A DNA stretch of 63,268 nucleotides, counting the filler, from Asterionella formosa (lineage: Eukaryota): the NCBI GenBank assembly GCA_002256025.1. It is 9 parts of 9 records of this genome, joined end to end, with 100 filler letters (N's around TTAATTAATTAA, not from the genome) between each part and the next. Parts side by side here need not be neighbours in the genome. Positions count along the whole stretch, not along the records: positions 1 to 6,960 come from NKIB01012564.1; 8 more parts are not named here. The stretch is one strand, 5' to 3'. Position numbers and translations under genes: made by a program. The notes beneath the pieces were generated by a model. The model searched no databases. It was given only the letters and a program-made list of their open reading frames with translations, and had not been told where the DNA came from. Positions 1 through 59,608 of this stretch are shown one piece after another (position 1 is the first letter of the stretch; each line of letters starts with the position of its first letter).

Positions 1-1223
1 GTCTTCTTGACTTGATCATACAGTTCTTGCCCTGTAAAGAATTCATTTTGAGCCTCGCATGCCGCTATACCAAGCGCAATAACAGCATCGTAATTCGTGT
101 GTTCATAAGGTCCTTTTGTAACTTCTGCTGCCGAAAGATTGTAAAAATCGAAAATAGTTGGATCATGTTGGTTCGCAATAAAGTCTGCATGAATATTTGG
201 GTCCATACGAAACTCCTCCAGCGTGCTAGCCAAGTTTTTGTTAACTGGTACCTTAATCTGTACAACACCCATTCCTTGCATCGCTGCGGCAATTTCAGGC
301 TCCTTGCGTAAGTCAATAGAAAGTTGTATGAATTCCAGTCCTTCCCCAAACATCCATACATGCTCTGAATTGCCAGCATTCCCTAAGCGGTATCCTTCTG
401 CCAAAAGAAACTTCCAAGATAGCTCAGTAACGATAGCGTATACATATTTGTACTTGCTCGCCTGTATCTTTTGTACAGCTGATCTCATCGAATCCTCGTC
501 GTCATCTCGAAATGGTAAGGACAAAACGGTCATTCGAAACTTAGACGCTGCGGCAACCAAACTCGAATGATATGCGTCCCCAAACGAATCGTTGATAAAG
601 ACAACGGCAAAGTTAGTGACACCCAACGACTGAAAGTAAAGAACCACTGCGTTGCTATCTCCAGTATTTGTAGGAACGGTCCGAGCAAACAACGGTGCGT
701 CGGCCTTTCGATCCAGGTCCGACGAAGTCGAAGAAGGGCTTATTTGTGGGATTTGGGTAGCGCCGCTTAACACGGCCAGCGGCTTGGACTCAGCCGAAGA
801 ATAGGCACCGACGACGCCTGTTGGAAATGGTTCTGTTAGTGTTCCATATACTGCCTGGTAGAATATTCGAGAACCAAACAAGACGTCTTGCCTTGTATCC
901 GCAAGGTGCATCGTAAAGTAGAAGTCACAGGACGCTAAGCGCTCGGCGAGACCAGGAACAACGGCCGAATTTCTGTCATTGAAGTGTCTCAGCGCCATGT
1001 ACGCCCCCGCTTCCTGGTATACCAGATAATCAGCTGGTGTAAACGTTATAGTGCCATTCTCGTCCTTGTCAGCAATGGTCAGTGGCATGAGCTGGAGCAA
1101 GTGACCAAGGCGGACAGTGTTGTTTACTCTGACGACTGAGGATCCCTCCATGGTCACAAGTGAACCATCCCTGGATTTTCTGATGTCGTTGAAGTACGAT
1201 AGAGAATAGCTTTGGGTGTTCAT
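1..1223 (-). CDS. Class C GPCR / GABA-B receptor-like protein, N-terminal Venus-flytrap (ANF_receptor) domain; runs off the contig start
   Basis: Hand translation of an open minus frame from ATG 1223 to base 1 (absent from the ORF track because it has no stop): ...EAGAYMALRHFNDRNS...GVVGAYSSAESKPLAVLSGATQIPQISPSSTSSDLDRKADAPLFARTVPTN...NDSFGDAY...VWMFGEG...NYDAVIALGIAACEA. An upstream signal-peptide exon near 1320-1440 is possible. Confidence 0.85.
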   Translation of the reverse strand, partial: MNTQSYSLSYFNDIRKSRDGSLVTMEGSSVVRVNNTVRLGHLLQLMPLTIADKDENGTITFTPADYLVYQEAGAYMALRHFNDRNSAVVPGLAERLASCDFYFTMHLADTRQDVLFGSRIFYQAVYGTLTEPFPTGVVGAYSSAESKPLAVLSGATQIPQISPSSTSSDLDRKADAPLFARTVPTNTGDSNAVVLYFQSLGVTNFAVVFINDSFGDAYHSSLVAAASKFRMTVLSLPFRDDDEDSMRSAVQKIQASKYKYVYAIVTELSWKFLLAEGYRLGNAGNSEHVWMFGEGLEFIQLSIDLRKEPEIAAAMQGMGVVQIKVPVNKNLASTLEEFRMDPNIHADFIANQHDPTIFDFYNLSAAEVTKGPYEHTNYDAVIALGIAACEAQNEFFTGQELYDQVKK

Positions 1224-2089
1224 CCCAAGATCGCTCTGTTTGTAAATCTCAGAAACAACTCTACTGGAAGTATACCGGCACTTGGTTGCAAATCTTCACT
1301 TCAAAAAGTAAAATATTTTTTACAGGCACTTTTCGTCAACGAATAAATTAGATTGATAAACAATCCGTGATGATGTTGTCATGAATCCAGTAGAACATCC
1401 ATACACGAGAAAATATACTGATATGCACATAGGACATGATACTGTATGAATTAAGTGATGCCGAATGTCCCCATGAAAAGAGGAAAAGGTCACAGACATA
1501 ATTTATACCAGTTTGTCTATCATGTACCGGTAAATACCGGTAACTAGAGAACACTTCACAGGATCAAGTCACGTTCGATTCCTCCTTCGACTTTACTACA
1601 GACACTATGACCGACGATCGCTTGCTGAGATACCGGCATGTGCATTCTTATACGTTGAACCGTTAGTGGAATTCCAGAGAAGCCTTTTCCCAAGCCAGGA
1701 AACGCCGTTCGCATTTCCAAGATTAAAAAAGTAGTCCTCGCCGTTCCATTTTATATCTTTATTTGCTTTTGAAAAGAACACATTCATGTTTCGAATTTAA
1801 CATGTACCAATATGTGATACTATTTCGCATGCGCCAAGCATTTCCATGCCCTTGATCATGGTGGGGCAATATTAACTAATGACGTCCGGGTATGTTCTTT
1901 CCTAACAATAATGGACCCATTTGAGAATAGACACTGTGGCCTCGTCATCGATGTAGCACAGTTGGCATAATGGGTGCATGCAAAGGTAAATATTAGCATA
2001 ACCAGTGCAGTACTGTTACTGGTAAAATTCAACCCAAGTTGCATTTTTTCTGTACGGGAAATGATGGTACATGGTACTTTGACATTATT

Positions 2090-4379
2090 GACGAAATTCT
2101 ACCAAAGTAGTATTTTTCTGTAGGGCTCCGGTAATGTTCTACTCTGGACAGGTCAATACTGTCCGGTACCCCTCCCTTGCTTGACCGTGGTGAAAATATG
2201 GTATAGAGAAAGGCAAAAATTCTACCCAGTAGTACTGGAGGTAGAATTTTTCTTAAAATTTTGGTAGAATATTCTACCAACGGACCGATGGAACCCTGCA
2301 GTATGCCATGGTATTGTCGAAGTACCGGTAGTGGTGCCAGTACCAGGGTACCTGGTGCAGCACTGGTACTGGTACCTGATACTGGTACCCTGGTACCAGG
2401 CATGTGTAGGTGGTGAGTACTTTTGGGCACAACTCGTACCTGTACCTGCGTACCTGGTGCACTGGCTGTGTTGTGTCATGTTGAGGGATTATAATAATGG
2501 TAAAACATCATGATTGCATCCCTGTCAAAAGGCAGTTGTTTTCTCATTTCCTTGGCCATTTTCCTGAGACAGAGTGTATGGACCAATGCACTAACCCAAA
2601 AAACCAAAAAACAGTGGGTTTTCTGCTATGAACTGACAATCCAGCAAATGCTAAAGAAAGATCTAGACAATTCTGCAAGATGATGTGCATGCAGGAAAAT
2701 CATGAGTTTTGACAATTGAACAATGATAAATTGTCAAAACAGGATCTCTAAGTAATCATTAACACATACAAGTTGAAATGAATGCTCCTGAGATGATATT
2801 GTTTGAATGAGGGTTGCACATATCGTGGTGGTCAGTGCTGGGCAGTGTTCCTGATAAAGTTGCTTTTGCTGCAACAAATGCCAACAGCAACCCAAAATGG
2901 AAATGTCTACCATATGATATCAAGGTGATCAATCCTAAACAATGTCAGAGGTAACAAACAGAGTTGAATGATTAAAACCAGTGAGCTAAAAAGTTTTTTA
3001 ATCTATTTTCGATCGCTTGGTTGAGCTGGGCTTGAAAAAATGATGATGTGAGCCCTGTATGTCATTGTGAACCTTTCTAGTCACCTAGCAAGAGTACCCA
3101 TGATGTGCAAGACATCGGGGATTATAAAACATTCTTAGTTTATTTATTTCAAGTTCAATGCTGACTTTGAGACTGACTAAGTATATATTACTCATGAATT
3201 CCTGGTTACTAGAGTATAAGTTCTACTTTCTTTGTAGAGGTGACCGTTTAACCATAAGGAAATCACTGTATGATATCCTACTTAGAAATCAAACATTGTA
3301 ATAAGTGTTCTGAAATGTGTGTTTATGCCTTTTACTAGGCTAAATGTTAGTAGAACATGTCTATAGCTGATGAATCATATAGTATCTGGGGTTGGTTTAC
3401 ATAGCCACACTATCCCAATATGTCAGATCCATTCTTGAGCTACTAGCTAAAGTTCTACTTTAGTAGAGCTTTTGGAATAGTCAACATTTGCTATGTTTGT
3501 TGTAACTTTTTAAATAGCCTTATGTGTACTAGGCTACCCAGCCAAGCAATGTACCATAGGTCCATGTTGCACAGCTTGCTCTAGGAACCAACAAACCAAC
3601 AATCAAGCAGGTATTACGGACAAACAAGCAAACATGGATGTGGGTCCTGATTATAAAAGTAACCTTCCAAGACACCAAACTAAACTTGTTCCTTGGTAAG
3701 AATAGGAAGTTGGAATTTCAGAACGAAAAAACCAGAAAGGCTACTATTTACAAGCAGCAGGGCAGGGCAGGGAGCCGGATGATGAAATATGCATCTACTA
3801 TTGGCAGCACAAGGTTGTCTGGGATGCAGTGGTGACTCTACTAGCTAGTAGTTTGAGTGGGTACATGGCACATGTAGCCCTAGACTAAATCTATGAGACA
3901 CATGGTCAGGATAAGATTGTTACTCACATTCTTGTCAACCAAATGTTGAAAGGTTGCAGTGGTGGTGGGCATCCACAACTACAGCCGTGTTAAGCTAGAT
4001 AAATGCATATACTACTAAAAAATAACATACATCCTTAATTCATTAAATTCAAATTTCATTTTCAATGTTATGTACCTTGTTAATTCATTGCCTGTTTCTT
4101 ACCTGGTATAAACACCAGACCAGTTGAATCAGCATTACACACAACAACGAAGCTACTAGTACCTGGTAGCTAAATCCGGCAACACCAGGTGCTGGTACCA
4201 GGTACCTGGAACATACCGTAGTACCAGGTACCAGGTACTTGGTACCAGCAAAGGTGGCACCGCCCACTCCCACACAGTGCATGCTTTGTACGTGAATAAT
4301 GATAGTTAACTAGTGCACTAGTTTTCACTAGTACGACAAAATATGGTAGTATTGGGGGTAGAATTAATTGTCAATACTG
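2090..4379 (+). mobile_element. Degenerate CryptonS-like element, family A, internally deleted copy
   Basis: 2380-2512 and 2510-4379 align with 14255-14395 and 15108-16990. About 710 bp of the recombinase region is missing at a TCAT microhomology (~2510). GGTAGAAT/ATTCTACC motifs occur near both ends. The left boundary is approximate. Confidence 0.65.
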
Positions 4380-5225
4380 TGCCAGTATTGACAACATTTT
4401 ACAGTGGTAAAATTAGGTACTAACCTCCAAGAATTTCAACCCGGTTGCATTGGCCAAATGGATGGCTGTGAAGACTTGCTTATGGTAAACCAAACCCAAG
4501 CTAAAACAACAATCCAACATATGGTAGTTGGAAAATACAAGAAAGCATTGTCCTACTTCATGCCACTCTGGTTCTCGACTTAGAATGTCATGACCAACTG
4601 TGGAACAAACCCAACCAGATCTGTGTTTGTTATTGACCTAATCTAGGCTGTAAAGAAAAAGGAGGTCCGGGAGCAAGGAAAAGCATCAGCAGCTTGTCGT
4701 CCACTTGAAGCCGAAGAATTTAAAAACACAAGAATTGCACTTCAAAGATGCAAAGACAGTATCCGCCACTACCAGATGGTTTCTCTATGTTCCTTGCAAT
4801 TCCACGTGGTTGGCCGGATTGACAACTGTTTCCAATTGAAGAAGGAAAACTTGAAGCCCAATCTTTGTTTTCCCTTTACCCTGATATGTTAGCTGTGTTG
4901 GTCCAAGAATGTCAAGGATGAGAGGTATGCACCAGATCTATTCCTCATGGTTGCAATGGAGCCACAGTTTTGTGTGCTACTCAACTTGGCAATCCACCTC
5001 GAGACAGAAGGAATGTCAAATGGCAGCTCACTGGAGAATGAATGGGTGTTTCCTCTTGGAACCATAATCCTCAGAATGCAAAAAATAAGGCATATTTTTC
5101 CTGCAAGCAGATGAAGTTTGGTCAGACAGTGAGTTCAACACCAGGATAGGCATCATTGTATTAATCGGAACACACAGCCTTTTTAAATATTCCTCAACCG
5201 ATGCACGAAGGAATGGATGCTCCTG
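4380..5225 (+). pseudogene. CryptonS-type tyrosine recombinase remnant (family B)
   Basis: Across stops and frameshifts it reads: LAKWMAVK..YGKPNP, KYKKALSYFMP, NPTRSVFVIDLI*AVKKKEVREQGKASAACRPLEAEEF, LQFHVVGRIDN, CWSKNVKDERYAPD..FCVLLNLAIHLE, LIGTHSLFKYSSTDARRNGCS. This is the motif series of stramenopile Crypton recombinases. Confidence 0.8.
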
Positions 5226-5389
5226 CGTAGCGTGCAAGTTGCTCGTTTTCTGTTCATTGATTATACGAGAAAAGGCAGGGGTAAACCCCCCAAAATTGTC
5301 GAATCCCTAAAATTTGCGCTACTCCGTTATTCTTTAAATAGTTGTTTACATAGACGTTAAGCCGTTGGCCGTTTGATTGTCAAAATGAA

Positions 5390-5985
5390 CTTGAAGTCAG
5401 TAGTTGGTAAGTTGAAGTCAGCAGTCAGCGATTTCATGTCAGCAGTCAGCGATTTTTTCAAAATTTCAGCAAATCAAGTCAGCAGTCAGCGAAACGAAGT
5501 TCGCAGTCAGTAGTTAGCAAGTTGAAGTCAGCATTTTTAGCTATGATAGTACATCATGGTAGCAATATGAAGAAGTAGGTACATAGCAATGATTTTATCA
5601 GGCCTCTACAGGTCGGTAAGTCTATTTCACAGTTTTTATCATGTACGGAGTACCAGGAACCTCTTTGTTACTCCCAGTACCAGGTAGTATGAACATAGAA
5701 GGCATCGCGTTTAGTATCCCAATAACGGAAAGATGCGTTTCCATCGTTATTCAAATATGAAAAGTAAAAATGCTTTGAACATTGGTACCGGTAGTTGGTC
5801 TCTTCCTGTGTACAAAGTAGGTTGCTTGACATCAGCATATTGAAGTTAGCAGTCAGCGACTGCATGTCAGTAGTCAGCAAATGAAGTCAGCAGTCAGCGA
5901 ATATTTCAAATTTTCAGCAAATCAAGTCAGCAGTTAGCAACAAGAAGTCCACAGTCAGCAAGTTGAAGTTAGTAGTCAGCGATTC
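5390..5985. repeat. Two ~150-bp direct-repeat blocks built from (T)GAAGTCAGCAGTCAGCGA-like units
   Basis: Blocks at ~5390-5535 and ~5840-5985 share unit order, e.g. TTTCAGCAAATCAAGTCAGCAG in both. Confidence 0.75.
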
Positions 5986-6544
5986 TGCTGTGAAAGGTGG
6001 CAGCGCTTTTCCGTTTGAAACTTTATAACGGTTACAGGTAGTATTAATAAATGGAAATATTTTGAGATTTTTCATCATTTCGGAATTGGTGAGCTGGTCA
6101 GACTTCCAATGAAGTACCGGTAGTTTGAAATCGCTACGTGGTATTTTTAGTAAATATTGCGCGCAGTGCGCTGATTACCGGACCTTCCAGGTGAAGCATA
6201 ATATCAGTACTTTCTGTACCGGGTATTAGGGTTGTATGGATGGGTGTGGTCCGCCCGAGGTAGAAGTCATTCTCGTGTGTACATTTTATACCGACCATTT
6301 TTTAGATGTCGGTTTGACCTAAAATTCAGGGTGTGAATAGGTAAGTACCCGAATGGCACGACGATAGCTGGAGAGGGAATTGTATAGTCAGCATTGACCA
6401 TGATGTCAATATTGCCACCAAGCAATATTTTTCTTGCAGTACTAATGTGCTTTGCAACCTTGCTACTACGAGTTCTATGTATCAATATTCAGCTAGAGGG
6501 AGACAATAGTGCTGGAACAGCCTGGCAGTCACGCTTGCTCAAAT

Positions 6545-6576
6545 TGGAATGGAATGGAATGGAATGGAATGGAATG
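6545..6576 (+). repeat. (GGAAT)6 microsatellite
   Basis: Read directly from the sequence. Confidence 0.95.
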
Positions 6577-6960
6577 ATCAGAGTTGTTTGATGGGAGGAA
6601 CAACTTTGGGCGGAAGCGCTCTTGCTACTTGTGTCAGGCTACTATAGCTATGTGCATGGCTGGTTGCAGCAACCAGATCACCTACGCCACATAATGATGC
6701 AGATCTCAATTGGCTGGGTTTAGCTTTTTTCTTCATTTCTGTTTTATTTCGCTCTTTGATTGTGTGATGGAAAGGCAAGAATGTTGCCTACTACAATGGA
6801 TACATCGCCACTGAAACTCCTCTTTTAACCTATTGTTTCTAAACCAAAACAATATTTTCTATTTCTCATTTGACGCTACTTATTACATCGCATTTCATAC
6901 TTTGGTTGCTCCAAACATCATGTTCAATTTTCGTTGATGTTGCATGTTACAATCATTCTC

Positions 6961-7060
6961 NNNNNNNNNNNNNNNNNNNNNNNNNNNNNNNNNNNNNNNN
7001 NNNNTTAATTAATTAANNNNNNNNNNNNNNNNNNNNNNNNNNNNNNNNNNNNNNNNNNNN
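6961..7060. other. Artificial contig spacer N44-TTAATTAATTAA-N44 (first of eight)
   Basis: Identical 100-bp spacers also at 14011-14110, 21055-21154, 28095-28194, 35136-35235, 42174-42273, 49212-49311 and 56245-56344. The 12-mer puts stops in all six frames. Confidence 0.97.
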
Positions 7061-8907: not shown

Positions 8908-11024
8908 CGTCTGCAAATAAAAAGTATCATGCATATAGGATCAAGGGTATTGTACGCTAAGTGGCACGGGATTTTCGTATATATGATAATTTTTGGATCA
9001 AAAATATGATCATGGTATCTTGTAACTATGATGATTTATCTTAATATTTTACCGACCTTGAAGTATAATGGTAATAAGAACATTATCATCACACAATGTA
9101 TATCAACTGATCAACAATATTTCCCATCAATATCATAAACCTTCTCATATTATTTTCACTTCTCGTGATTGCCTGATGTAAATTATAACTACAACGTATC
9201 CTAAAACCAGCTCGACTCTATGCTATCATGTGAATTGTTTCATTGTAAATCTATCGTAAACATGATCATAATTCTAATCAAAAGCATTGTTCAAAATAGA
9301 TTGAAATGGATCGTAATTCAACTAGTATCTAATTAAGCAATGCTATCTATTAATCTACATGCCAGCGACCCAACGTTTCTCTCTCTACTCGGCTCAATGT
9401 ATATTTTTCCTGTCTCACCCTTTTCTTCCTCTTTTCTGAATCTTTTGCCAAGATTGTGCCAAGCAATGCCTTACTAATGTTGTGTCTCTCTCCCTGCTGT
9501 TAGTGTCATTGTGAACTCGCCGGCTATTCCGTTTGATCGGTTTTATTTTCCTATGCATGCAGTTACAGTAACAATGAGAAGGAATGATTTGTTAGCTAGT
9601 GATGTTACAATGACACAAGAACACGCAATTCTACCGTTTCCTCTTGCTTTACTTACCACAAATCAATGCAACTGATGCATAAGTCTGTAATAGTAACTTG
9701 TCAGTAAGCCAAATTCTTGAATAAGTAAGTTTCGGGTATCCAATGTTGTCGAATAAAACTTACCGGTTCATTTTTGTCAGCTTAACTTTGAGAAAAGGTA
9801 AACATTTTGTCAGTTTTGTTCCAACAGAAAAGAATAGGTCCAACAAGCGACAAGAGCACTTGTGCAATTTTGTTTTGTTTTACATTGGTGCTCCTCAACA
9901 AGCAAAACGAGCTGTTGAATCAACTGAGAAAAAAGGAAATTTGCGTTTAGTTAACAATTTGTTGTTGTGCTGCCTGCCTCCCAACGATTTTCATCCAAGT
10001 ACCACATTGATGGCTTCATTACCTTATTCATTCTCCATCCTTCGAATGCGCAATTTGTCGAAGCCCCAATGTTTTTCGTTATGTATTGCGTAAATTTTCT
10101 TTTCTTATCATGTGCTTTACTACGACGTATCTTTTCATGAAGTTAACATGACAGAACGATTTCAAGAATATATATGCCATGAATATAGTAATAAAATTTG
10201 TAAATATATATATATATATATATTAAGTGTTATACATTTAAAAATTCAAAGGCGCTCTCGATATGGAACATCTGATATGGTTGAGATGGCCATACTCGCA
10301 TACACATAATTCGAAAATACTCAATGAACTATATGTCCATTGTTTTCCACGACTACGTGTACTGGAATTGTTTCTGAAATTTGTTTGCATCGATATTTTC
10401 TACGTCCGTTGAAACTAATTATTTAGACCCTTCAATTGCCGCAAGGGTTTTGGTAGCAAATTGTTAAAGCCACTTTTTTGGTCCGGAGCCCTTCATGTGT
10501 ACCGGTACATAATATGACAATAACAATATATCATATATAGTATATACAGAGTACCAGTAGCAGGTAGTAAGTGATAAACTGGGGGTAGTCGGAGTAGTAA
10601 ACTAGCAACAGAAAACCATATGTTCAGGACTGTTGCTACTGCGGTGGCACAGTAAATCATCATAGTATTAGGATCATATGATCATAAAACTAAAAACCAA
10701 TAAAACACCATATGTTCAGGACTGTTGCTACTGCATTGGAACAGTAAATCATCATAGTTATAGGATTGTATTGTTCAATGAACTCAATCACTACAAAGGT
10801 CGCAATTCGGTTCAAAAACAGTCCATACAAGGTTATCAAGACTCTTCAAATTCAGCAGCCTTATCAGAACGTCGTTCTCGCTTAGCTAAAATTGAACCAT
10901 CAATTGTCATAAAGGTTGTGAGTTTTAGTTGCTTTCAAGACCAAGAAGTTTTGCTGTGAACATGTAAGTTTGATGTTTTAGTTTGTGAATTGCAGGTACT
11001 GCGAAACAGAAATATCAATCAAAT

Positions 11025-14110: not shown

Positions 14111-16996
14111 TTGTTTCATGAATTTGGTCATGCCTTTTAAAACCGGTACCAGGGTTTTTTGTAGTTTACCTTTGTACACAGTGCTAGTTGACTGCTAGTA
14201 CACTAGCTTTCACTACGGTCTTAAAAGGTTGCACTGGTTGAATTTTTTGCATGTACCACCCTGGTACTGGTACCTGGTAAGGCATGTGTTGCTGGTGAGT
14301 GCTTTTGGGTACGACTCGTACCTGTACCTGTACCTGTGTACCTGGTGAACTTGCTGTGTTATGTTTAGGGATTATACTAATGGTAAAACATCATAAATTA
14401 AAATAAACTTGAACATCAGTACAATTAAACATCAGCATAGCAACAAGCAATGTTGACCAGGAGAGTAAATGAACTGACACATTCCCATGCTTACAAAAAT
14501 GTACTTATTTCTATGATGTTGTACAGGGAGGTTATGGCAAATAGCCAATGATAGTAGTACTAAAAGCTATGAGTTTAGTGTAGTAGAGGAGCCTGGGGAA
14601 AACAAAGATGATGATCAAACACTTGGCCAGTATTCTTCCATTAACTATTACTGCAAAAAAGGCAATGTAGTATTTTATGCCACATTTTCTTTTCACTTGG
14701 AATGTAATTACCCACAGTGGAAATTCAACAATGTTATGTGCCTGCTGTCAATGACCTTGTCATCAAAAAGGCCATAAAACAGAATATGTATGCAGACAAG
14801 ACAAGGGAAAATTACAAGCAAGGCAGCCTCTAGAGTCTAACATTTAGCAAGGTTTCAATCATGATGGTCATCCTTTTCTCATTCAAGTATAAAATATCCA
14901 ATTCATCAATGGTATGAGCTGCCTGTGTGTGTGTTGTGTCTGTCAATTCCATGTGGTCAGCCAAATTGACAATTGCTTCCAACTAACAAGAATACTAACT
15001 GCAAATATTCGACTCGACTCCTTGTCGCTCTGATGGCCAAGCTGCATCTGTGGTGTTGAACGCAAATTCTAAGGACAAGAGGGATTCCGCGCCAAGCCAG
15101 GTTCTCATTGATTGCATCCCTGTCAAAAGGCAGTTGTTTTCTCATTTCCTTGGCCATTATCCTGAGACAGATTGTATGGACCAATGCAATAACCCAAAAA
15201 ACAGTGGGTTTTCTGCTAAGAACTGACAATCCAGCGAATGCTAAAGAAAGACTTAGACAATTCTGCAAGATGATGTGTATGCAGGAAAATCATGAGTTTT
15301 GAAAATTGAACAATGGTAAATTGTCAAACAGGATCTCTAAGTAATCATTAACACATACAAGTTGAAATGAATGCTCCTGAGATGATAATTGTTTGAAAGA
15401 GATTCGCACATATCGTGGTGGTCAGCGCTGGGCAGTGTTCCTGACAAAGTTGCTTTTGCTGCAACAAATGCCAACAGCAACCCAAAATGGAAATGTCAGC
15501 CATATGCTATCAAGGCGATCAATCCTAAACAAGTTCAGAGGTAACAAACAGAGTTGAACGATTAAAACGAGTGAGCTAAAAAGTTTTTTAATCTATTTTC
15601 GATCGCTTGGTTGAGCTGCTGGGCTTGGAAAAATGATGATGTGAGCCCTGTATGTCATTGTGAACTTTTCTAGTCACCTAGCCAGAGTACCCATGATGTG
15701 CAAGACATCGGGTATTATAAACCATTCTTATTTTATTTGTTTCAAGTTCAATGCTGACTTTGAGACTGACTAAGTATATATTACTTGCTCATGAATTCCT
15801 GGTTACTAGTAGAGCATAAATTCTACTTTCTTCGTAGAGGTGACCGTTTAACCATAAGGAAATCACTGTATCATGATATTCTACTTCGAATTCAAACATT
15901 GTAATAAGTGTTCTGAAATGTGTGGTTATTCCTTGTACTAGGCTAAATGTTAGTTGAACATGTCTATAACTGATGAACCATATATCTGGGTTGGTTTACA
16001 TAGTAGCCACACTAGCTATCCCTATACTATGTCAGATCCATTCTTGAGCTAGCTAAAGTTCTACTTTAGTAGAGCTTTTGGAATAGTCAACATTTGCTAT
16101 GTTTGTTGTAACTATTTAAATAGCATTATGTGTACGCTACCCAGCCAAGCAATGTACCATAGGTCCACCATGTCACACAGCTTGCTCTAGAAACCAACAA
16201 ACCAACAATCAAGCAGGTATTGCGGACAAACAAGCAAACATGGATGTGGATCCTGATAATGAAAGAAACCTTCCAAGGCACCAAAACTATATTTGTTCTT
16301 TGGTAAGAATGGGAAGTTGGAATCACCGAAAAAAAACCAGAAAGGCTACTATTTACAAGCAGCAGGGCAGGGAGGATGAGGAAATATGCATCTACTATCA
16401 GCAGGCGCAAGGTTGTCTGGGATGCAGTGGCGACTCTAGCTAGTTTGAGTGGGTAGATGGCACATCTAGCCCTGTATTAAATCTATGAGACATGTGGTTT
16501 GGATAAGATTGTTACTCACATTCTCGTCAACCAAATGTTGAAAGGTTGCAGTGGTGGTGGGCATCCACAACTACAGCCATGTTAAGCTAGATAAATGCGT
16601 ATACTACTAAATAATTACATAAATGCTTACTATATTAAATTCAAATTTCATTTTCAATGTACTGTACCTTGTTATTTCATTGCCTGCTTCTTCCCGGTAT
16701 AAATACCAGACCAGTTGAATCAGCATTACACACAACGACGCTAGCAAAATCCGGCAACACCAGGTGCTGGTACCTGGTACATACCGTAGTGCCACGTACC
16801 GGTACGGTACCAGGCTACTTCATGCATTGTAACAGCATCGCCCCTGGTAACCCTGGTACCAGCACGGTGGCACCGCCCACTCACACACAGTGCATGCTTT
16901 GTACGTGCATCATGATAGTTAACTAGTGCGCTAGCTTCCACTACAACAAAAAATGGTAGTATTGGGGGTAGAATTAATTGTCAATACTGGCACAGT
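14111..16996 (+). mobile_element. Degenerate CryptonS-like element, family A, longest copy (recombinase remnant ~14500-15520)
   Basis: Remnants KKAM*YFMPHFLFTWNVITHSGNST, PAVNDLVIKK, QARQPLE, NSKDKRDSAPSQVLI, CFLISLAIIL, GSLSNH and TYRGG parallel the family-B recombinase motif order. It ends TTGTCAATACTGGCACAGT. Confidence 0.7.
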
Positions 16997-18759
16997 AACG
17001 CTACATACCGGTGATCATGTGTACAGGTATTACTGGTATTTTTGGATAGTTACGATTCCAAGAGGGATAACTGCAGTTTCTCTCCAGAAATGAGGTCCTC
17101 AGCAAATCCGAAGATAGAACATACCCCTAGTATACCGGTAGTACTCGGAGTACCTGCAAGTTGCGTTACCGGTAGTTTTCCTTTCTTCGTGTGCCACCGG
17201 TACACATTTCTAAAACCGACAGATATTTCACGACTCGGCTGCCGTACAGAAATCAATGTACCGCTACAGGTAACAGTCGTATGCACATGCATCATGACGC
17301 CCTTTGTTGAGAAGTTAATTAATAGCAACCTCATGGAGTTCAATCATCACTTAAATAATTCAAACAATCATGTTCTTTTGTTCTTTAGTATGCATGTCTA
17401 TCTAACCGACCTGATTTATCAGCTTGCAACAAATGGTGAACTCCCGCTGACAACTAATAAATCGTGACATGGCTGGTGACAGAGCGAGGCTCAGTCGTTT
17501 CCATGCAACAATAAAAAAATTCCTGGAGACACAAGCATTAAGATTGATTATATTAGGCGAATACATTCGAAGGAATGTTATAGCAAGGAGAACAGGGTGG
17601 TTAATCGATGATTGCTAGCAATCAATAGGACTCGAATTTGGCAGAATTGAAGGCGAAAACAACATGCAAACTCGTCTATAATATGGTTAACAGAATTGAT
17701 CAGACAAATATGTAGTCAAACTAACATTAACAAGGCTATAACTTCTATTCGTCAACATTCTAATTTAAAAAGTATTGCCACAGATGCAATGAGCTGTTAG
17801 AATGGTAGCTGCTTTACCAACATGCAACTGACGCTAAATACTACAACACTAAGTTTACTTACAACTTTGCTGAAGAGCTAGTAAGTATATATCAGAGATC
17901 GACAACGCAGCATGGGGTTGATTGCTTTAATGAGCGATTGTTGCTTTATACTGCAGAAATGACAAAGGGGAACTGTGGCAAACTGTAGACCGATCATATG
18001 GTTTCGCAATATTTAATGACAAGGACAAGAAAAAGTTCATGCCGACAAGATTCTATCATCACACACTAGTACGTACTGACGTGTATGTATGCGCATCCAT
18101 CAGGTACCTGGTACCAGGTACCGGTATTACTCCAAACAAATAAAATTCATACCGTCCACTATTATTCTCTTTTTATCTACCAGTACATACATCTCCACGT
18201 CCGATATTTATATAGGATGTGCTCCTGATTAGTCCAGATATTTGGAGTAAATCTGCTCTGCTCTTCCCAGGACAATATAGTACAGGGGGGGGGGGCTACA
18301 GGTAGTATTCTGAGTAGATCCTTCCTATACAGAAAAACCTACCTAAGCAAGGCCTTGTGGTTACATGATGCATTGATTATAATGAAGCAGTATGACTTAG
18401 TAAGCAATGTCTACAATAGTCCCACAAGCTGGTGCAACAAGGGAGCTGTACTCTAACGCTAGTCTATTGAGTGACTAGAGTATAGCACTCCCACTACTAG
18501 AAGATTACTCCATCAGACAAGTAGTAAGTGAGTGGGACGGACAAATGAGTGCAGTGATTGATACAACGAGGAGTGACCAAACAACTTGCTCGATATGTGA
18601 GTTTTTCTGTCGTAAATATTCCTAACCCTCTCTCCTCTCAGACGGCTGAAATACTGCAGATGGTCCCGATGAAAACTTAAGAATGTGATATCCTGCCCCA
18701 CTGGTCAAGTTGAGTGCCAATGAATAAAATAGATATTTAACCCATCTCCATGTTGTTAT

Positions 18760-21154: not shown

Positions 21155-24100
21155 CAATCAACAAAATGCACCAATCAAGCAGAAGGGAGAAGACGCCAAT
21201 ACCACTACGCAAGGAATGTTCGTGGTGACGTGTATTGAGGCAAGGTACAATGAAGAGGTAAATCATACATGCGTGCATAAGGACCGTTGGCTACTAGACA
21301 GTGGTGCTACGGTACATATATGCAATGATGAGCACATCATGGAGGACAAGCGCGCAGTGCGTGAAACTGTTCTTGTGGGAAACGGCGCAGCAATTGTTGT
21401 GACCATATCAGGCACAGTGACCCTTACGACGACAGACAAAGGAAAAGTGTTGAAACTCACCAATGTGCTCTATGCACCGGAGTTCAAGCAGAACATCATC
21501 AGCATTTCGAGAATTATTGACAAGGGAAATAAAGTTATGTTTGACGATGATAAGATGACGATCAGAAACAACAACGGATTTTTGATCTGCTGCAAACGTG
21601 ATGAAACGAGGACGATTGGCGCAATGTACCATGTGCAAGGAACGCCTATTTTAAAGGAAACGGTGTTGGAGGTTGAACAAGAAAGCGAGGAGCCAACACA
21701 ACAATCTATCGACTATGATAAAGAATACAAGAGTGAATGGACGAAAGTCGACGAAAAGAAGAAGACAACGAAAGCGATTAGTGAAACGATCGAGAAAAGA
21801 AACGCGAACGAAAATAATGATGTGATAGTGGAAATAAATGAAGGGCATGAAATGCTCGGACATGTGGGAGAAAAATGTCTTCTTGAGACATCGAAATTAT
21901 TTGGGTGGAAACTTGTGGGAAATTTAAAGGTGTGCGCAGGATTCGCAGCAGCCAAGGCGAAAGCACGCGCAGTACCCAAGATGACGCAAGAGAAGGCTAC
22001 GACACCAGGAGAAAGACTGTTTATTGATATTAGCGGACCCTACGCAAAATCCGCTGTGGGAAATCAGTATTGGGTGATGGTCGTGGACGATTATACAAGG
22101 AAACGCTGGAGTTATTTTATCAAGAAGAAAAGTGACATCGGAACTGTCATTGAAGCGTTACTTACAAAACTTGCAGGTGCAGGACACAAGACTAAATTTG
22201 TCCGATGTGATGACGCAGGTGAGAACTCCAAGCAACTAAAGAAAGTATGTGAAAACCAAGGTGTCAAGATGGAATTCACGGCACCTCATACTCCGCAGCA
22301 CAATGGTGTTGTGGAACGTGGTTTTGTTACAGTGCGTCAGAGAGCACTCGCTATGATGCTAAGTGCGAAGTTTACAGATGAATATCAGGGGCTATTGTGG
22401 GCAGAAGCGGTACATACTGCGACAAGATTGACGAACAGTACAGTGAATTCAGTGACTTAGAAGAGTCCTGATGATGTGTTCTATGGGGAAACGAATGCAA
22501 GGCGGCCCTACAAGCTCTACAGGCAATTTGGACGTGTTGGTTGGGTTACTATAAGAGAAGGTGTCAAGAAATTAGATGCACGTTCCATCAAGTGTGTCTT
22601 TTTGGGATACTCAGACGATCACTCTCAAGATACGTTTCGCATGTATAATCACGAGACAAATACTGTGGTCAATACACGTGACGTAAAGTGGAGTGAGTGG
22701 CATGGAACAAACGTACCAACGGATGGACTAGAGAAAATGTTCAAACCAGTCACCAACCAACAGGATACGGAGATATCAGTACGAGAAGATAATGAAGAAT
22801 TGCATGACGATTTTTATGACGAATTCGAACCTGGAGAAGTGTCCGATAATGAAGATGAAGATGATGACAAGCAAGAATTAGGGAGGAAAACTGAACAATC
22901 AACTAAGATAGATGGTACTACGAAATACGAAGATACAGGTACCAATACCCCAATTATGAAGGCTAAACATGCGGAAAGTGCTCAGGCTAAGCAAGCGAAG
23001 TTGGCACGTGAAATGCGAAGATTGGACTCATCGTTCAATCCTACGAATACGAAAGTTGTGAAATTTTCGGGAGATACTAGTAAGATACCTAGTGTTATCG
23101 AGGAGGATAAAATGAAGGAAATTACGAAGAATACACAGGTGAATTTAGTGTACAACGCAAGTCTGGCTTCTGATCCAGGATTACCAACAAGCTATGATGA
23201 AGCAATGGCAAGACCAGACAAGAAAGAGTGGATCAATGCGATCAACAAAGAATATGAAAACTTCCAGTCGAGAGGAGTGTGGAAAGTTGTCAAGCGTGAC
23301 ACTGTTCAGAAGCGAACACTAAAAACGAGATGGGTGTTTCGAATTAAAGAAGATGTGTTAACCGGGAAGACCATTTACAAGGCAAGATTGGTCGTGAAGG
23401 GATATGAGCAAATCCCAGGTGTCGATTTTACTGAGACATTTGCTCCAGTTGCAAGCGATGCGACAATCAAAACGGTACTCGCAGTGACGATGTACAATGG
23501 TTGGCGAGCGGAGGCTATTGATGTGGAAGCAGCATTCCTAAATGCTGACGTCGATGAGGACATTTATATTGAGCCCCCTCAAGGTTTGATCGGAGTCGAT
23601 TCCGATACACATGTTTGCAAGCTTGTGAAGGCTATGTACGGGATAGTACAAGCTCCACGATGCTGGTCCAAGACGTTTGCGAAGTGTGTCACCAACAAAT
23701 CAGGTATGACAAAGAGCAAGATCGACCCTATGTTATTTATACACCGGAACAAGGAGGGACAAATTGATGGTCTACTTGTTAATTACGTGGATGACGGTAT
23801 TGTATGTGGGACTCCAAGTGCAGTGGAGTATATGAAAAATGTCATCAACGAAGATTTCAATATTACCGAGCAGGGTATTCTACAGAAACACCTAGGAGTG
23901 GAATATGCTTGGAAAGAGGACAAGTATGGTGAATACTGGGAGGTGCAGATGCAGAAATTCCGTATGCAACTCCTACACGAATACGAGAATTTGACCGGAA
24001 TGAAAATTAAGTCGTACGCAACGCCGGGCGTACCAGGAAAGACATTGAACAAGAATGACGGTGAAGTCATTATGGAAGGAGAATATCGAAAAATTGTGGG

Positions 24101-25185
24101 CAAGTTACTATGGTCTACAAAGAAGGATTCGTCGGACTGTGCGAATGCGGTTCGGGATTTATCGGCTCATTTAAGCTGCCCAGGTGAAGAACAATGGCAT
24201 GCAGTGGCAAGAGTCATTGGTTACCCATCCAATATGGAGGATAGAGTTCTCAAGTTGCGTAAGCCAAAAGAGTTAAGAGTTATTGCCTACGTGGACAGTG
24301 ACTGGGCTGCTAATAAGGTTAACAGGAAGAGCACGACTGGCTATCTTGTTACTATTGGCGGGGCACTTATCAGTTGGCAGTCGAAAGGACAACAAACGGT
24401 TACGTTGTCCAAGCATGGAAGCCGAGTATGTGGCGATGTCCCAGTGTGGACAAGAGATCAAGTTCATAGCAATGCTACTGAATGAGGTTACTGGGGGTAA
24501 GGTCATGTGACCAAGTATCCTACGAGAAGACAATACAGGAGCTATTTTTATCGCGAAGAATCAGCAAATCGGAACCAGGACAAAACACATTGATATTAAG
24601 TATCATCATGTAAAGGACATGATTGAGGATGAAGAATTGGAAGTCATTTTTATAAGGTCCGAAGATAATTTTGCGGACATTATGACTAAGAACGTGAAGG
24701 AACAGATTCACACGAGATTGTCCGAACCAGTTCAGAGTGGAACGATGTTACAGCCTCTTGAGCGTGGCAATGGGGAGGATGTCAAGAATATTAGCCCGAG
24801 TCACAAGGATTGTGGACTCGATTGTAATCGAACGAGTCGTATATTGCATTGCCACGTCAATCAGCTGTCTAACAAGATCAAAGATTGAAGATTTCTATGG
24901 AAATGTTAAGTGGAAACTCGAAGAGAGTCTTAGAACGGCTTTGCGGGAAGCAAAGATGCATGGAAAGGAAACATTTAGTTTAGCTTATAATTTAATTTGA
25001 GTTTTAGATTATCAACCGAGGAAACAGTGTGTTAATTGACAGGAAGGTCAATTAGTCTATCTAGCAGGAAGGCTAGAAGCAGAGACAAGAGAGAAAGTAA
25101 GTGGTACTAGGTAGTACTACGAGCACGTAAGAGTCTACGTGAAGAGAGACCCAGCCCGCGGGAAGGAGTACGGACCATTTCAACA
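21155..25185 (+). mobile_element. Ty1/Copia LTR retrotransposon (PR-IN-RT-RH plus 3' LTR), 5' end cut by the contig, mildly disrupted
   Basis: Protease WLLDSGAT; integrase H-x3-GH...D..VDDY...RCDDAGE...PQHNGVVER; RT YKARLVVKGY/DVEAAFL/YVDDG; RNase H YVDSDWA...RKSTTG...EAEY...EDN...RTKHIDIKYH. Premature TAG at 22458, frameshift ~24410, TGA ~24508. Confidence 0.95.
24780..25185 (+). repeat. 3' LTR (TGTCAAG...TTCAACA), preceded by polypurine tract AATGGGGAGGA
   Basis: TG...CA ends, adjacent PPT, and homology to the LTR at 33065-33443. Confidence 0.9.
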
Positions 25186-25349
25186 CTGTTTATGCAGTAT
25201 TTTAATTCATTCTCAGCATGGTCACATCTGTCATCAATGGTGGGAATGAAAATCACATCGGCTCAGTACCAGGTAGGAGTACTTTAGTCTACCGGAACTC
25301 CCCTGTGGATACCTGTACCGACATACCGGTACTGGTAGTACCAGGGGTA

Positions 25350-28194: not shown

Positions 28195-30361
28195 CTATTG
28201 CTTGCTTATTACTCCGACTACCGGTACCGCTTTTCAGTTTCACGATCATACAATCCTAAAACTATGATAATTTACTATGGTGTTCTATTGCTTGCTTATT
28301 ACTCCGACTACCGGTACCGCTTTTCAGTTTTACGATCATACAATCCTAAAACTATGATGATTTACTATGGTGTTCTATTGCTTGCTTATTACTCCGACTA
28401 CTGCTTTTTAGTTTTACGATCATACAATCCTAAAACTACGATGATTTACTGTTCCACTGCAGTGTGCTATGGTAGCAACAGTTCTGAACATATAGTTTTC
28501 GATTTGTTTTTAGTTTTATGATCATACAATCCTAAAACTATGATAATTTACTGTTCCATTGTAATTGCAACAGTCATGAACATATGGTGTTTTTTACGAT
28601 CATACGATCCTAAAACTATGATGATTTACTGTCCCACTGCAGTAGCAACAGTCCTGAACATATGGTGTTCTGTTGCTAGTTTACTACTCCGACTACCCCC
28701 AGTATATCACTTACCACCTGTTACTGGTGCTCTCTGTATATATATGATATATTGTTATTGTCATATGATGTACCGGTACACATGAAGAGCTCCCAACCAA
28801 AAAAGGGGCTTAAACAATTTGCTACCAAAACCCTTGCGGCAATTGAACGGTCTAAATAATTAGTTTCAATGGACGTAGAAAATATCGATGCAAACAAATT
28901 TCAGAAACAATTCCGGTACACGTAGTCGTGGAAAACAATGGACATGTGGTGCATTGAGTATTTTCGAATTATGTATATGCGAGTATGATCATCCCAACCA
29001 TATCAGATGTTCCATATCGAGAGCGCCTTTGAATTTTATAAATGTATAACACTTAATATATATATATATATTTACAAATTTTATTACTATATACATGGCA
29101 TATATATTTTTGAAATCGTTCTGTCATGTTAACAAACAATGCCTGCTGCTTCATGAAAAGATACGTCGTAGTAAAGCACATGACAAGAAAAGAAAGTTTA
29201 TGCAATACATCACGAAAAACATTGTGACTTCGACACATTGCGCATTCGAAGGATGGAGAATGCTTAAGGTAATGAAGCCATCAATGTGGTACTTGGATGA
29301 CAATCGTTGGGAGGCAGGCAGCACAACAACAAATTGTTAACTAAACGCAGCCACATTTCCTTTTTTCTCAGTTGATTCAACAGCTCGTTTCGCTTGTTGG
29401 GGAGCACCAATGTAAATCAAAACCAAATTGCGTAAGTGCTCTTGTCGCTCGTTGGACCTATTCACTTCTGTTGGAACAAAACTGACAAAACGTTTACCTT
29501 CTCTCAAAGTTAAGCTGACAAAAATGAACCGGTAAGTTTTATTCGACAACATTGGATACCCGAGACTTACTTATTCAAGAATTTACTGACAATTTACCGT
29601 AATAGACTTATGCATCATTTGCATTGATTTGTGGTAAGTGAAGCAAGAGGATACGGTGGAATTGTGTGACGTTGTGTCAATGTAACATTACTAGCTAACA
29701 AATCATTCCTTCTCATTGTTACTGTTTCTGCATAGGACAATAAAACCAATCAAACAACGGAATAGTCGGTGAGTTCAGAGTGTCACTAATTGCAGGGAGA
29801 AATGCAAGACATTAATCACTGCATGGCGCAAGATTCAGAATAGAGGAAGGAAAGGGCAAGACAGGATCAATATACATTGAGCCGAGTAGAGAGAGAAATG
29901 TTGGGTTGCTGGCCTGTAGAATCATAGATAGCATTGCTAAATTTGTCAATTAAATTAAGATCCATTCCAATCCTTTTTTAACAATCCTTGTAATTAGAAA
30001 TATGATCATGTTTAAGATAGATATACGATGAAACAATTCAAATGATAGCATATAAATTAGCTGATTTTAGGATGCATTGTAGTTATAATTTACATCGGGC
30101 GATCACGAGAAGTGAAAATAATATGAGAAGGTTTATGATATTGACGAGAAATGTTGTTGATCAGTTTATTTACATTGTGTGATGATAATGCTCCTATTAT
30201 CATTATACTTCAAGGTCGGTAACATATTAATAAATCATCATAGATACAAGATACCTTGATCATATTTTTGATCCAAAAATTATCATATATATGAAAATCC
30301 TGTGCCACTTAGCATACGATACCCTTGATCCTATATGCATGATACTTTTTATTTACAGACG
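28195..30361 (-). mobile_element. Second copy of the Plavaka-like element end, inserted into a Copia gag; includes a ~80-90-bp tandem array (28195-28690)
   Basis: Inverted near-copy of 8908-10770. The array unit contains GATCATACAATCCTAAAACTATGAT. Gag coding sequence resumes right at 30362. Confidence 0.75.
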
Positions 30362-52788: not shown

Positions 52789-52978
52789 TATACATACATA
52801 CATACATACATACATACATACATACATACATACATACATACATACATACATACATACATAAATACATAAATACATAAATACATAAATACATAAATACATA
52901 AATACATAAATACATAAATACATAAATACATAAATACATACATAAATACATAAATACATACGTAAATGCATACATACA
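52789..52978 (+). repeat. Compound microsatellite (TACA)n-(TACATAAA)n
   Basis: Read directly; it generates the spurious MYVC/YLCIYVF ORFs. Confidence 0.97.
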
Positions 52979-52985
52979 CACATAA

Positions 52986-58874: not shown

Positions 58875-58882
58875 CTATAGAC

Positions 58883-59608
58883 ACTGTGCCAGTATTGACA
58901 ATTAATGCTAGTACCCCCAATACTACCATTTTTTGTTGTAGTGAAAGCTAGTGCACTAGTTAACTATCATTATGCACGTACAGNNNNNNNNNNNNNNNNN
59001 NNNNNNNNNNNNNNNNNNNNNNNNNNNNNNNNNNNNNNNNNNNNNNNNNNNNNNNNNNNNNNNNNNNNNNNNNNNNNNNNNNNNNNNNNNNNNNNNNNNN
59101 NNNNNNAGTGCACTAGTTAACTATCATTATGCACGTACAAAGCATGCACTGTGTGGGAGTGGGCGGTGCCACCTTTGCTGGTACCAGGTACCTGGTACCT
59201 CGTCTCACCAGGGGCGATGCTGTTACAATGCGTGAAGTACCCTGGTACCGGTACCTGGTACTACGGTATGTTCCAGGTACCTGGTACCAGCACCTGGTGT
59301 TGCCGGATTTTGCTAGCTTCGTTGTTGTGTGTAATGCTGATTCAACTGGTCTGGTGTTTATATCAGGTAAGAAGCAGGCAATGAAATAACAAGGTACATT
59401 ACATTGAAAATGAAATTTGAATTTAATGTAGTAAGTATGTATGTTATTATTTAGTAGTATACGCATTTATCTAGCTTAACACGGCTGGAGTTGTGGATGC
59501 CCACCACCACTGCAACCTTTCAACATTTGGTTGACGAGAATGGCTGTGAGTAACAATCTTATCCTGACCATGTGTCTCATAGATTTAGTCCAGGGCTACA
59601 TGTGCCAT
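58883..59608 (-). mobile_element. 3' end of Crypton family A (third copy, inverted)
   Basis: Reverse complement of ~3865-4379 and ~16460-16996, with the same terminus TTGTCAATACTGGCACAGT. Contains a 123-N scaffold gap. Confidence 0.8.

What the first reader, a model, noticed from the sequence alone, without database searches (positions are those of the whole stretch)
4368..4394. loxP-like arm-core-arm site at the junction of two CryptonS elements
Seen: TTGTCAATAC-TGTGCCA-GTATTGACAA is a pair of perfect 10-bp inverted arms around a 7-bp asymmetric core, exactly where family A ends and the family-B recombinase region begins. The other two family-A ends (16978-16996; 58883-58901 inverted) are half-sites: TTGTCAATAC-TGGCACA-GT followed by unrelated flank. 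There the core is the reverse complement of the one at 4378. Known: tyrosine recombinases (Cre, Flp, XerCD) act on inverted arms flanking a 6-8-bp core, and Cryptons are YR transposons thought to move via circles, but their crossover sites are poorly defined. Inference: this is the crossover site of a diatom Crypton, one element has integrated into the end of another, and the pair is a candidate eukaryotic site-specific recombinase and target.
Basis: partly seen in the sequence, partly recalled or inferred. Interest (0 to 1): 0.7.

Follow-up and report, generated by a model that had tools for sequence, protein, structure and literature searches.

The report
Nested Crypton transposon crossover site
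This palindrome is the scar left where one recombinase-driven jumping gene inserted into a related one, and comparing their many copies shows a crossover rule (only three of seven central bases must match, and each side always keeps its own other four) that points to a one-strand swap finished by the host cell.

Summary
The 27-bp palindrome is real. It is the right junction (attR) of Crypton family A, inserted into an internal site about 80 bp inside the left end of a sister family B. The perfect symmetry is accidental: A's arm meets B's site. All four site forms were recovered for both families. They share TAC-[7-bp core]-(G/T)TA. Only core positions 5-7 match between element and target (ACA for A, CTG for B). 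Left junctions never carry the element's positions 1-4 (0 of 69); right junctions nearly always do (67 of 75). The same 4+3 pattern, with other trinucleotides, holds in relatives at 34-45% protein identity. The encoded protein has tyrosine-recombinase motifs and a Cre/Flp-like fold. The best-fitting mechanism (inferred, not shown) is one strand exchange finished by replication or a host resolvase, as in CTX phage and bacterial SE elements. The core at 4378 is flipped relative to the family norm, probably by a template switch. The scan had already noted joined Crypton ends with a 7-base crossover on other pieces of this genome. I did not find the asymmetric core rule in the papers searched.

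The parts
2005..2025 (+). Left junction (attL) of family B: flank arm GTGC, target-derived core AGTA-CTG (2009-2015), B left arm TTACTGGTAA (2016-2025)
   Evidence: B left ends read flank-TAC-NNNN-CTG-TTAYTGGTAA in 32 distinct flanks
2016..2077 (+). First ~60 bp of family B (shortened copy of its ~80-bp 5' module), ending in the left arm of B's internal site
2075..2094 (+). Left junction (attL) of family A inside B: TAC, target core TTTG-ACA (2078-2084; CTTGACA in uninterrupted B), A left arm TTATTGACGA
2085..4377 (+). Family-A element, a non-autonomous decayed copy (2.3 kb); only a relic of the recombinase C-terminal part is recognisable at 3586-3984; motif AATTCTACC at 2095, 2218, 2248(-), 4365(-)
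2150..2168 (+). Internal site-like segment of A (AGGTCAATAC-TGTCCG-GTA), partly complementary to A's joined ends; role unknown
   Evidence: not selected in the best fold
4368..4377 (+). Right arm of family A (TTGTCAATAC)
4378..4384 (+). 7-bp core of A's attR, here flipped (TGTGCCA; family norm TGGCACA/TAGCACA)
4385..4394 (+). Right arm of B's internal site (GTATTGACAA), target-derived; it happens to be the exact reverse complement of A's right arm
4385..5227 (+). Rest of family B: a ~460-bp deletion after 4454 removes the ORF start; recombinase relic 4536-5223 (79-90% aa to the intact B protein, with a stop and frameshifts); cut off at 5227 by another repeat
14247..14267 (+). Right junction (attR) of family B, TTGCATGTAC-CACCCTG-GTAC, sitting inside a family-A body on another contig of the window
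16978..16997 (+). Ordinary attR of family A (core TGGCACA, target arm GTA)
58882..58901 (-). Ordinary attR of family A (core TGGCACA, target arm GTG)

Best explanation
SHOWN from sequence: families A and B are two Crypton-type elements with Cre-like recombinases about 60% identical. Each has a joined-end site (attP): A TTGTCAATAC-TGGC-ACA-TTATTGACGA, B TTGCATGTAC-CACC-CTG-TTATTGGTAA. Each inserts at TAC-NNNN-xyz-GTA, where xyz equals the last three core bases of its own attP. After insertion the left junction keeps the target's core and the right junction keeps the element's core. The site at 4368 is the attR of an A copy that went into B's internal site ATGATGGTAC-CTTG-ACA-GTATTGACAA; its core was later inverted. 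INFERRED: the recombinase binds the two arms and cuts 7 bp apart, after TAC on each strand. Only the bottom-strand exchange, which needs the 3-bp match, is completed. The 4-bp mismatch blocks the second exchange, and the Holliday junction is finished by replication (or cut by a host resolvase). Excision by the same route gives a circle with the element's core and an exactly restored target, while the sister strand can keep the element, so copy number rises. The flip at 4378 most likely arose by an inter-strand template switch between the accidentally perfect arms, and may hinder A's excision from B.
For: Tallies over all places listed by four anchored genome searches (counted; distinct flanks, head-to-tail junctions left out). 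A attL: ACA 34 of 37, TAC arm 23 of 37, element 4-mer 0 of 37. A attR: TGGC/TAGC 39 of 43, GTA arm 32 of 43. B attL: CTG 31 of 32, TAC 24 of 32, CACC 0 of 32. B attR: CACC 28 of 32, GTA 27 of 32. Against a 50:50 split: 0 of 69 (p 3e-21) and 67 of 75 (p 1e-12). Empty paralogous targets already hold the trinucleotide: B's internal site for A; GTAC-AGTA-CTG-GTAC in A bodies for B (attL L010/L065, attR L075/L085, empty L074, L078, L083); further cases L002, L044, L205/L208, L051/L179. Joined-end sites occur in G000 contigs (L083, L091, L092, L042, L063, L123), in metagenome contigs (L260, L262, L276) and as a loose end in run X5. Related lineages follow the rule with other cores: TCTT-CCG (L266-L284 cluster), TATC-GTA (L313, L317, L320 clusters), TATC-CTA (L329 cluster), TAGC-ACA (L269). 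In the TATC-GTA and TATC-CTA sister lineages the target trinucleotide changes with the element's core. Protein: R137, K167, H255-x-x-R258, W281, Y291 conserved in at least 90% of 95 homologues; model pLDDT 86.9, top PDB matches Cre and Flp. Precedent: single-exchange integration of CTX phage governed by base pairing (PMC3089051 passages); strand-biased SE elements whose carried 6 bp end up at attR (PMC9345347 passages); active Chlamydomonas Cryptons excise cleanly yet gain copies (PMC9977147 passages); spacer inversion by template switch (PMC5453318 passages).
Against: Cleavage positions, strand order and circles are not observed; joined-end contigs may be tandem copies. Sequence alone cannot separate replication from resolvase cutting or biased repair. 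8 of 75 attR cores depart from the element 4-mer; most look decayed or carry small duplications, but AGGG-ACA (L176) and CTGC-ACA (L202) could be products of the other strand. Some paralogous empty sites do not fit (L247 GCA, L102/L118 CCA, L181), and these are paralogues, not alleles. Target position 4 is biased to T in A (27 of 37 against 38 of the first 100 genomic sites, hand count; p 4e-4), which homology to the element's C does not explain. Foldseek E-values are modest (2e-4), TM-score to the target ~0.55; Pfam Phage_integrase is below its cut-off and seen in only 3 of 34 homologues, and absent for P0001. No PDB sequence match. The flipped core was seen only in this assembly (2 loci); one search did not show positions 4378-4384.
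Confidence: 0.65

Rival explanations
1. Both strands are exchanged across the 7-bp core, as in Tn916/CTnDOT (recalled), leaving 4-bp heteroduplexes at both junctions that are then repaired or segregated with a strong bias to one strand.
For: Gives the same final sequences if the bias is near total. A few attR cores differ from the element 4-mer (L176, L202, L241, L252). Position 1 of target cores tends to match the element (C in 19 of 34 B groups, T in 16 of 38 A groups, junction groups included), as a second exchange might favour.
Against: Unbiased segregation predicts about half of attL with the element's core; 0 of 69 have it. A near-total repair bias is an extra assumption.
Confidence: 0.15
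2. A plain conservative crossover inside a 3-bp direct repeat (standard Crypton model with a short repeat), the four adjacent bases being part of the arms, with cleavage geometry other than the 7-bp axis (for example an overlap of ACA-(G/T)TA).
For: Describes the junction sequences equally well; published Crypton and Starship models speak of crossover within short terminal microhomology.
Against: The dyad axis of both attP (8 of 10 arm bases in A) and of the targets (TAC...GTA) is centred on 7 bp in every family examined. Tyrosine recombinases cut 6-8 bp apart between inverted arms (PMC3212892).
Confidence: 0.12
3. The element moves as folded single-stranded DNA (integron/CTX style), the joined ends or an internal complement forming the substrate.
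For: Sequence around both attP folds better than shuffles on the top strand (z -3.9 and -3.8 for A, -2.6 for B). A has an internal segment partly complementary to its joined ends. A single-stranded substrate would also give one-strand exchange.
Against: The folding is explained by the two inverted ends themselves. The internal segment is not used in the best folds, and B shows no clear internal complement. A hairpin attP would put the core in a loop.
Confidence: 0.06
4. Ordinary DDE transposon or MITE ends (TIR plus target duplication), or an assembly artefact.
For: The ends have an imperfect ~19-bp subterminal inverted similarity (anchors).
Against: 8 full-length A copies show no duplicated flank beyond ACA. 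Target and joined-end forms exist. The ends enclose a recombinase ORF, complete in L260. The uninterrupted B site also shows as a joint in runs X1, X2, X5 and X7.
Confidence: 0.02

Closest known systems
CryptonS elements of oomycetes and Phaeodactylum (Kojima and Jurka 2011, PMC3212892; parts 1-2 of 7 and supplement 1 read)
   Same: Single tyrosine-recombinase ORF, ~3-kb size, conserved C-terminal region, no long repeats, many non-autonomous copies; the nearest ESM Atlas clusters are oomycete proteins.
   Different: Described with 5-6 bp terminal direct repeats (mostly TATGG; CTGTAAG for CryptonS-1_PTri) and no GCR1_C. Here the repeat is 3 bp inside a 7-bp core with arms, and the C-terminus hits GCR1_C weakly. 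No arms, core asymmetry or mutual nesting are described in the parts read.
CryptonF, including active CryptonF-1_cRei of Chlamydomonas (PMC9977147, passages)
   Same: YR plus GCR1_C-type C-terminus; the end motif matches the target motif; clean excision together with copy gain, called 'a complex mode of transposition'.
   Different: 5-bp CACCG/CAYCG homology; no NDC10_II Pfam hit in the 35 proteins scanned here; no arm-core anatomy given in the passages read.
Starships (PMC10104507 passages; bioRxiv 10.64898/2026.09.21.753150 part 1 of 4)
   Same: Eukaryotic YR elements, microhomology with the target, clean excision, circle junction demonstrated; target TTAC(N7)A has similar spacing.
   Different: Giant cargo elements with another YR family; the shared bases are the TTAC itself, not three bases at the far end of the spacer.
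[quoted passage not shown]
   Same: Tyrosine recombinase exchanges one pair of strands; unequal spacers; the carried spacer ends up at attR (SE); base pairing decides the target (CTX).
   Different: Bacterial and multi-protein. SE circles take the attL spacer (it changes each round) and leave no empty site, whereas here the attR core is kept, so it stays constant. CTX uses a folded single strand and host enzymes.
Cre/loxP and Flp/FRT
   Same: Fold and inverted arms around an asymmetric core.
   Different: Need near-complete core identity and long perfect arms (established knowledge; mv4 preprint passages). Here targets need only ~3-bp arms and 3-bp core identity, with ~1100 perfect A targets in the genome.

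Membership tests
Crypton DNA transposons (broad sense) | Encodes a tyrosine recombinase with catalytic R-(K)-HxxR-(H/W)-Y | tested here: met
   a 650-aa open frame in 4 contigs for B (N-terminus cut by the contig start); complete 705-aa A frame in L260
Crypton DNA transposons (broad sense) | No RT or DDE gene, no long terminal repeats, no true target-site duplication | tested here: met
   one ORF between the ends in A copies of 1.5-3.0 kb; B (~3.6 kb) is pieced from overlapping contigs, so a second small gene is not fully excluded
Crypton DNA transposons (broad sense) | Short direct repeat at both ends that is homology with the target | tested here: met
   3 bp (ACA, CTG), present in empty paralogous sites; shorter than the 4-6 bp in print
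Crypton DNA transposons (broad sense) | Moves through an extrachromosomal circle | tested here: inconclusive
   joined ends found, but only assembled contigs were available; circle and tandem cannot be told apart
CryptonS | No GCR1_C domain | tested here: not met
   PF12550 at 23.6 bits (cut-off 23) in P0001; hit in 33 of 34 homologues at E<0.05. The 2011 definition may predate the sensitivity of the present model.
CryptonS | 5-6 bp terminal direct repeats, mostly TATGG | tested here: not met
   3-bp repeats ACA/CTG against supplement 1
CryptonS | Conserved C-terminal region | tested here: met
   invariant W564, E566, G570, R585, G586, R595, W599
CryptonS | YR groups with CryptonS reference proteins in a tree | not testable with these tools
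   no Repbase reference sequences available; Atlas neighbours are oomycete clusters, a lead only
CryptonS | Stramenopile host | not tested
   host genes were not classified; runs holding the stretch are algal and freshwater metagenomes
CryptonF | YR (Ndc10-like) plus GCR1_C, 6-bp terminal repeats | tested here: inconclusive
   weak GCR1_C hit; Ndc10 structure at Foldseek rank 21; no NDC10_II Pfam hit; repeat is 3 bp
loxP/FRT-type simple site-specific system | Full core identity between partners and one specific target | tested here: not met
   28 different 4-mers in 37 A attL, 22 in 32 B attL
DDE TIR transposon / MITE | Terminal inverted repeats with duplicated target | tested here: not met

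The most novel reading that the evidence does not exclude
This clade of eukaryotic tyrosine-recombinase transposons moves by a single, strand-fixed exchange finished by replication. That makes it a copy-out element whose target choice is programmed by three bases of its own core and can be retargeted by changing them. Sister families have diverged in exactly these bases and repeatedly parasitise each other's internal sites, with core flips locking composites in place.
Probability: 0.4. Interest if true: 0.8.

Novelty: new variant of a known kind. Interest (0 to 1): 0.6.

Why it matters
How Cryptons cut and join has been a model since 2003, and active Cryptons were seen to excise cleanly and still gain copies without an explanation (PMC9977147). 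Here all four site forms (attP, attB, attL, attR) are defined to the base for two families with open recombinase frames. The strict 4+3 inheritance makes a sharp prediction about strand order that one plasmid or oligonucleotide assay can test. If it holds, eukaryotic YR transposons share the one-exchange route known from CTX phage, integrons and SE elements, and the enzyme would be a small integrase whose target trinucleotide is set by the donor DNA.

Tried and rejected
Treating the three A ends as neighbours: rejected, the window is concatenated contigs. Reading TGTGCCAGTATTGACAA as a TIR shared by A and B: rejected once both left ends were found. Reading the palindrome as a circle junction: rejected, the joined ends have another right arm. 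Sequence searches of the PDB with P0001 and with the 95-protein profile found nothing significant. The full palindrome was not found in viral contigs. A motif-pair scan of 36 metagenome loci gave pairs in 9, had no control and is noisy in TAC-rich DNA; not used. Of 11 clusters among the 80 metagenome loci, one was family A itself, five were read at their ends and five were not examined because their matches run to contig ends. True empty alleles were not found: only paralogous sites among fetched loci were examined. No raw-read runs were offered, so circles and the flipped core could not be checked in reads. Folding for an internal-complement hairpin gave no clear support. A look-up of earlier scan notes by the P0001 sequence found nothing.
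Full report
Observation. A single hairpin of this size is expected 0.24 times in the window by composition, so its weight comes from context. TTGTCAATAC-N7-GT has 95 matches in the genome against 9 for the control, mostly with cores TGGCACA, TAGCACA or TGTCAAG. The window is a chain of ~7-kb contigs with N-linkers; bases 1-6960 are G000:C4514, also held as C12564.

Anatomy of the locus. Flanks of the genome matches show two families. Family B begins flank-TAC-NNNN-CTG-TTATTGGTAA. About 80 bp further in it carries an internal site ATGATGGTAC-CTTGACA-GTATTGACAA (27 places with this core, by hand count). It ends TTGCATGTAC-CACCCTG-GTAC-flank. Family A begins flank-TAC-NNNN-ACA-TTATTGACGA and ends TTGTCAATAC-TGGCACA-GTA-flank. 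In the window, B starts at 2009-2025 and its internal site is split. The left part with the core sits at 2075-2084 before A's left arm, A runs 2085-4377, and the right arm of B's site follows at 4385. So 4368-4394 is A's attR in B, and the perfect symmetry comes from A's arm meeting B's arm. The B copy has a ~460-bp deletion after 4454, a decayed recombinase stretch at 4536-5223, and is cut off at 5227. The uninterrupted B site also appears as a joint skipping A in all four runs laid.

The core rule. I fetched all places listed by four searches anchored inside the elements (40, 34, 59 and 59 places). The B-left pattern included the last core base, so that one position is biased. Duplicates were merged by flank, 2 truncated A ends were dropped and head-to-tail junction groups were set aside. 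A attL: ACA in 34 of 37, 28 different first 4-mers, none TGGC or TAGC. A attR: TGGC or TAGC in 39 of 43 (all A|B junctions count as one flank). B attL: CTG in 31 of 32, 22 different 4-mers, none CACC. B attR: CACC in 28 of 32. Target arms are TAC (23 of 37; 24 of 32) and GTA (32 of 43; 27 of 32). Joined ends carry the attR core (L083, L091, L092, L165, L216 for A; L042, L063, L123 for B). Empty paralogous sites already contain the trinucleotide: B's internal site, the GTAC-AGTACTG-GTAC tract of A bodies into which B inserts, and four more cases. Three paralogues do not fit. Eight full-length A copies (1.5-3.0 kb) show different left and constant right cores (7 of 8 TGGC) and no other duplication.

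Generality. A metagenome scan gave 80 loci. Five of the ten non-A clusters and one singleton were read at their ends. The L266-L284 cluster (45% identity to the B protein) has joined ends TAC-TCTT-CCG-TTA (2 contigs), attR TCTT/TCGT-CCG-GTA (2) and attL CGTA-CCG, TGTA-CCG, CTCC-TCG (3). Three clusters at ~34% have TAT-TATC-GTA at joined and right ends; all 7 distinct left ends carry GTA, none TATC, and 5 of 7 have the TAC arm. Their sister cluster L329-L334 has TATC-CTA at attR and CTA at both distinct left ends, so the required trinucleotide moved with the element's core. L269 (45%) has TAGC-ACA at its joined and right ends. These are small numbers from assembled contigs.

The enzyme. B's frame is open for 650 aa in four contigs. 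A's 705-aa frame is complete directly behind a joined-end site in L260, and eight G000 contigs hold its first ~306 residues open. The two are ~60% identical. R137, K167, H255, R258, W281 and Y291 are conserved in at least 90% of 95 homologues. The model (pLDDT 86.9) matches Cre and Flp best, at modest E-values of 2e-4 to 9e-4. Pfam gives a marginal GCR1_C domain at the C-terminus. I infer that it may bind the family-specific motifs AATTCTACC (A) and AATTCAACC (B) next to both ends; this is untested.

Mechanism. Tyrosine recombinases cut 6-8 bp apart between inverted arms (PMC3212892). With cuts after TAC on each strand, exchange of the bottom strands alone needs pairing at core positions 7-5. 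It yields a bottom strand with the target core at attL and the element core at attR, which is the observed pattern. Exchange of both strands would leave heteroduplex and, without bias, give the opposite pattern half the time; 0 of 69 attL show it. The junction would be finished by replication or by a host resolvase cutting at position 4/5, and sequence cannot separate these. The replication route also gives clean excision with copy gain, as reported for Chlamydomonas Cryptons (PMC9977147, passages). I put the site anatomy and nesting at about 0.9 and the one-exchange mechanism at about 0.65. Against it: no cleavage or circle was observed, two attR (L176, L202) may be other-strand products, and the T bias at target position 4 is unexplained.

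Nesting and the flip. A sits in B's internal site at 11 of the 59 A-left places (10 contigs plus one duplicate), against about 39 such sites among 1109 perfect targets (p 2e-5; the 11 and 39 are hand counts). Different A subtypes are involved, but spread of a composite by B's ends could inflate the count. B in turn inserts into A in both orientations. Of five A|B junction loci in G000, three keep TAGCACA and two (this one and C11331) have the flipped TGTGCCA. No attR with a unique flank has the flipped core. An inter-strand template switch can invert the spacer of an inverted repeat (PMC5453318, passages) and is the simplest cause; a recombinase-made flip is not excluded.

Comparison and novelty. 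It works like CTX/XerC and SE elements in strand bias (PMC3089051, PMC9345347; passages). It belongs to Cryptons in the broad sense. CryptonS membership fails two stated features (no GCR1_C; 5-6 bp repeats) and could not be tested by tree. Papers seen: PMC3212892 parts 1-2 of 7 and supplement 1; the Starship circle preprint part 1 of 4; passages of PMC9977147, PMC13465315, PMC10104507, PMC9345347, PMC3089051, PMC5453318, PMC12130899 and the mv4 preprint. Goodwin 2003 was seen only through citations; Tn916/CTnDOT heteroduplex behaviour is recalled. Searches showed no paper describing arms, a 7-bp core or asymmetric core inheritance for Cryptons. Repbase entries, subscription journals and preprint supplements were not visible and may hold such notes. 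Earlier AI notes of this scan on the same genome report joined Crypton ends at a 7-base crossover. My reading was stated before I saw them.

Verdict. A real recombination junction of a known class of element, with a site anatomy and inheritance rule that go beyond the published description and are directly testable: new variant of a known kind, interest 0.6.

Noticed in passing
window 5228-6000: Another high-copy repeat starts at 5228 and truncates family B (26 contigs with loose ends there in run X1; high depth); it carries arrays of AAGTCAGCAGTCAGC-like units at 5391-5531 and 5840-5972.
   Followed up: no
window 6961-7060 and every ~7 kb: N44-TTAATTAATTAA-N44 linkers: the window is a concatenation of size-sorted contigs, and G000 holds some of them twice (C4514 and C12564).
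   Followed up: yes
L261:2603-2640: Metagenome contig with A's right arm, unflipped TGGCACA and a hybrid arm TTATTGACAA leading into B; either an independent A-in-B junction or an assembly chimera.
   Followed up: partly
L062 (G000:C6227): A ~400-bp miniature of family B with both ends intact.
   Followed up: partly
L154/L254 (C12549), L155, L158/L255, L152: A third recombinase family in the genome, ~59-75% identical to B's protein; its ends were not defined. 153 matches to the YR domain in all.
   Followed up: no
window 8908-10771 and 28524-30361: Two copies (88%) of another ~1.9-kb repeat with internal 78-90 bp tandem units.
   Followed up: no
window 21209-25192 and 30543-33844: Two ~72%-identical copies of a purine-skewed element with long ORFs (449-674 aa); not classified.
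   Followed up: no
window 2330-2400, 4180-4250 and flanks of many insertions: GGTACC-rich tracts (CTGGTACCAGGTAC) are common in and around these elements and supply many TAC-N7-GTA targets, especially for family B.
   Followed up: partly
window 52780-52990: (TACA)n/(TAAATACA)n microsatellite.
   Followed up: no
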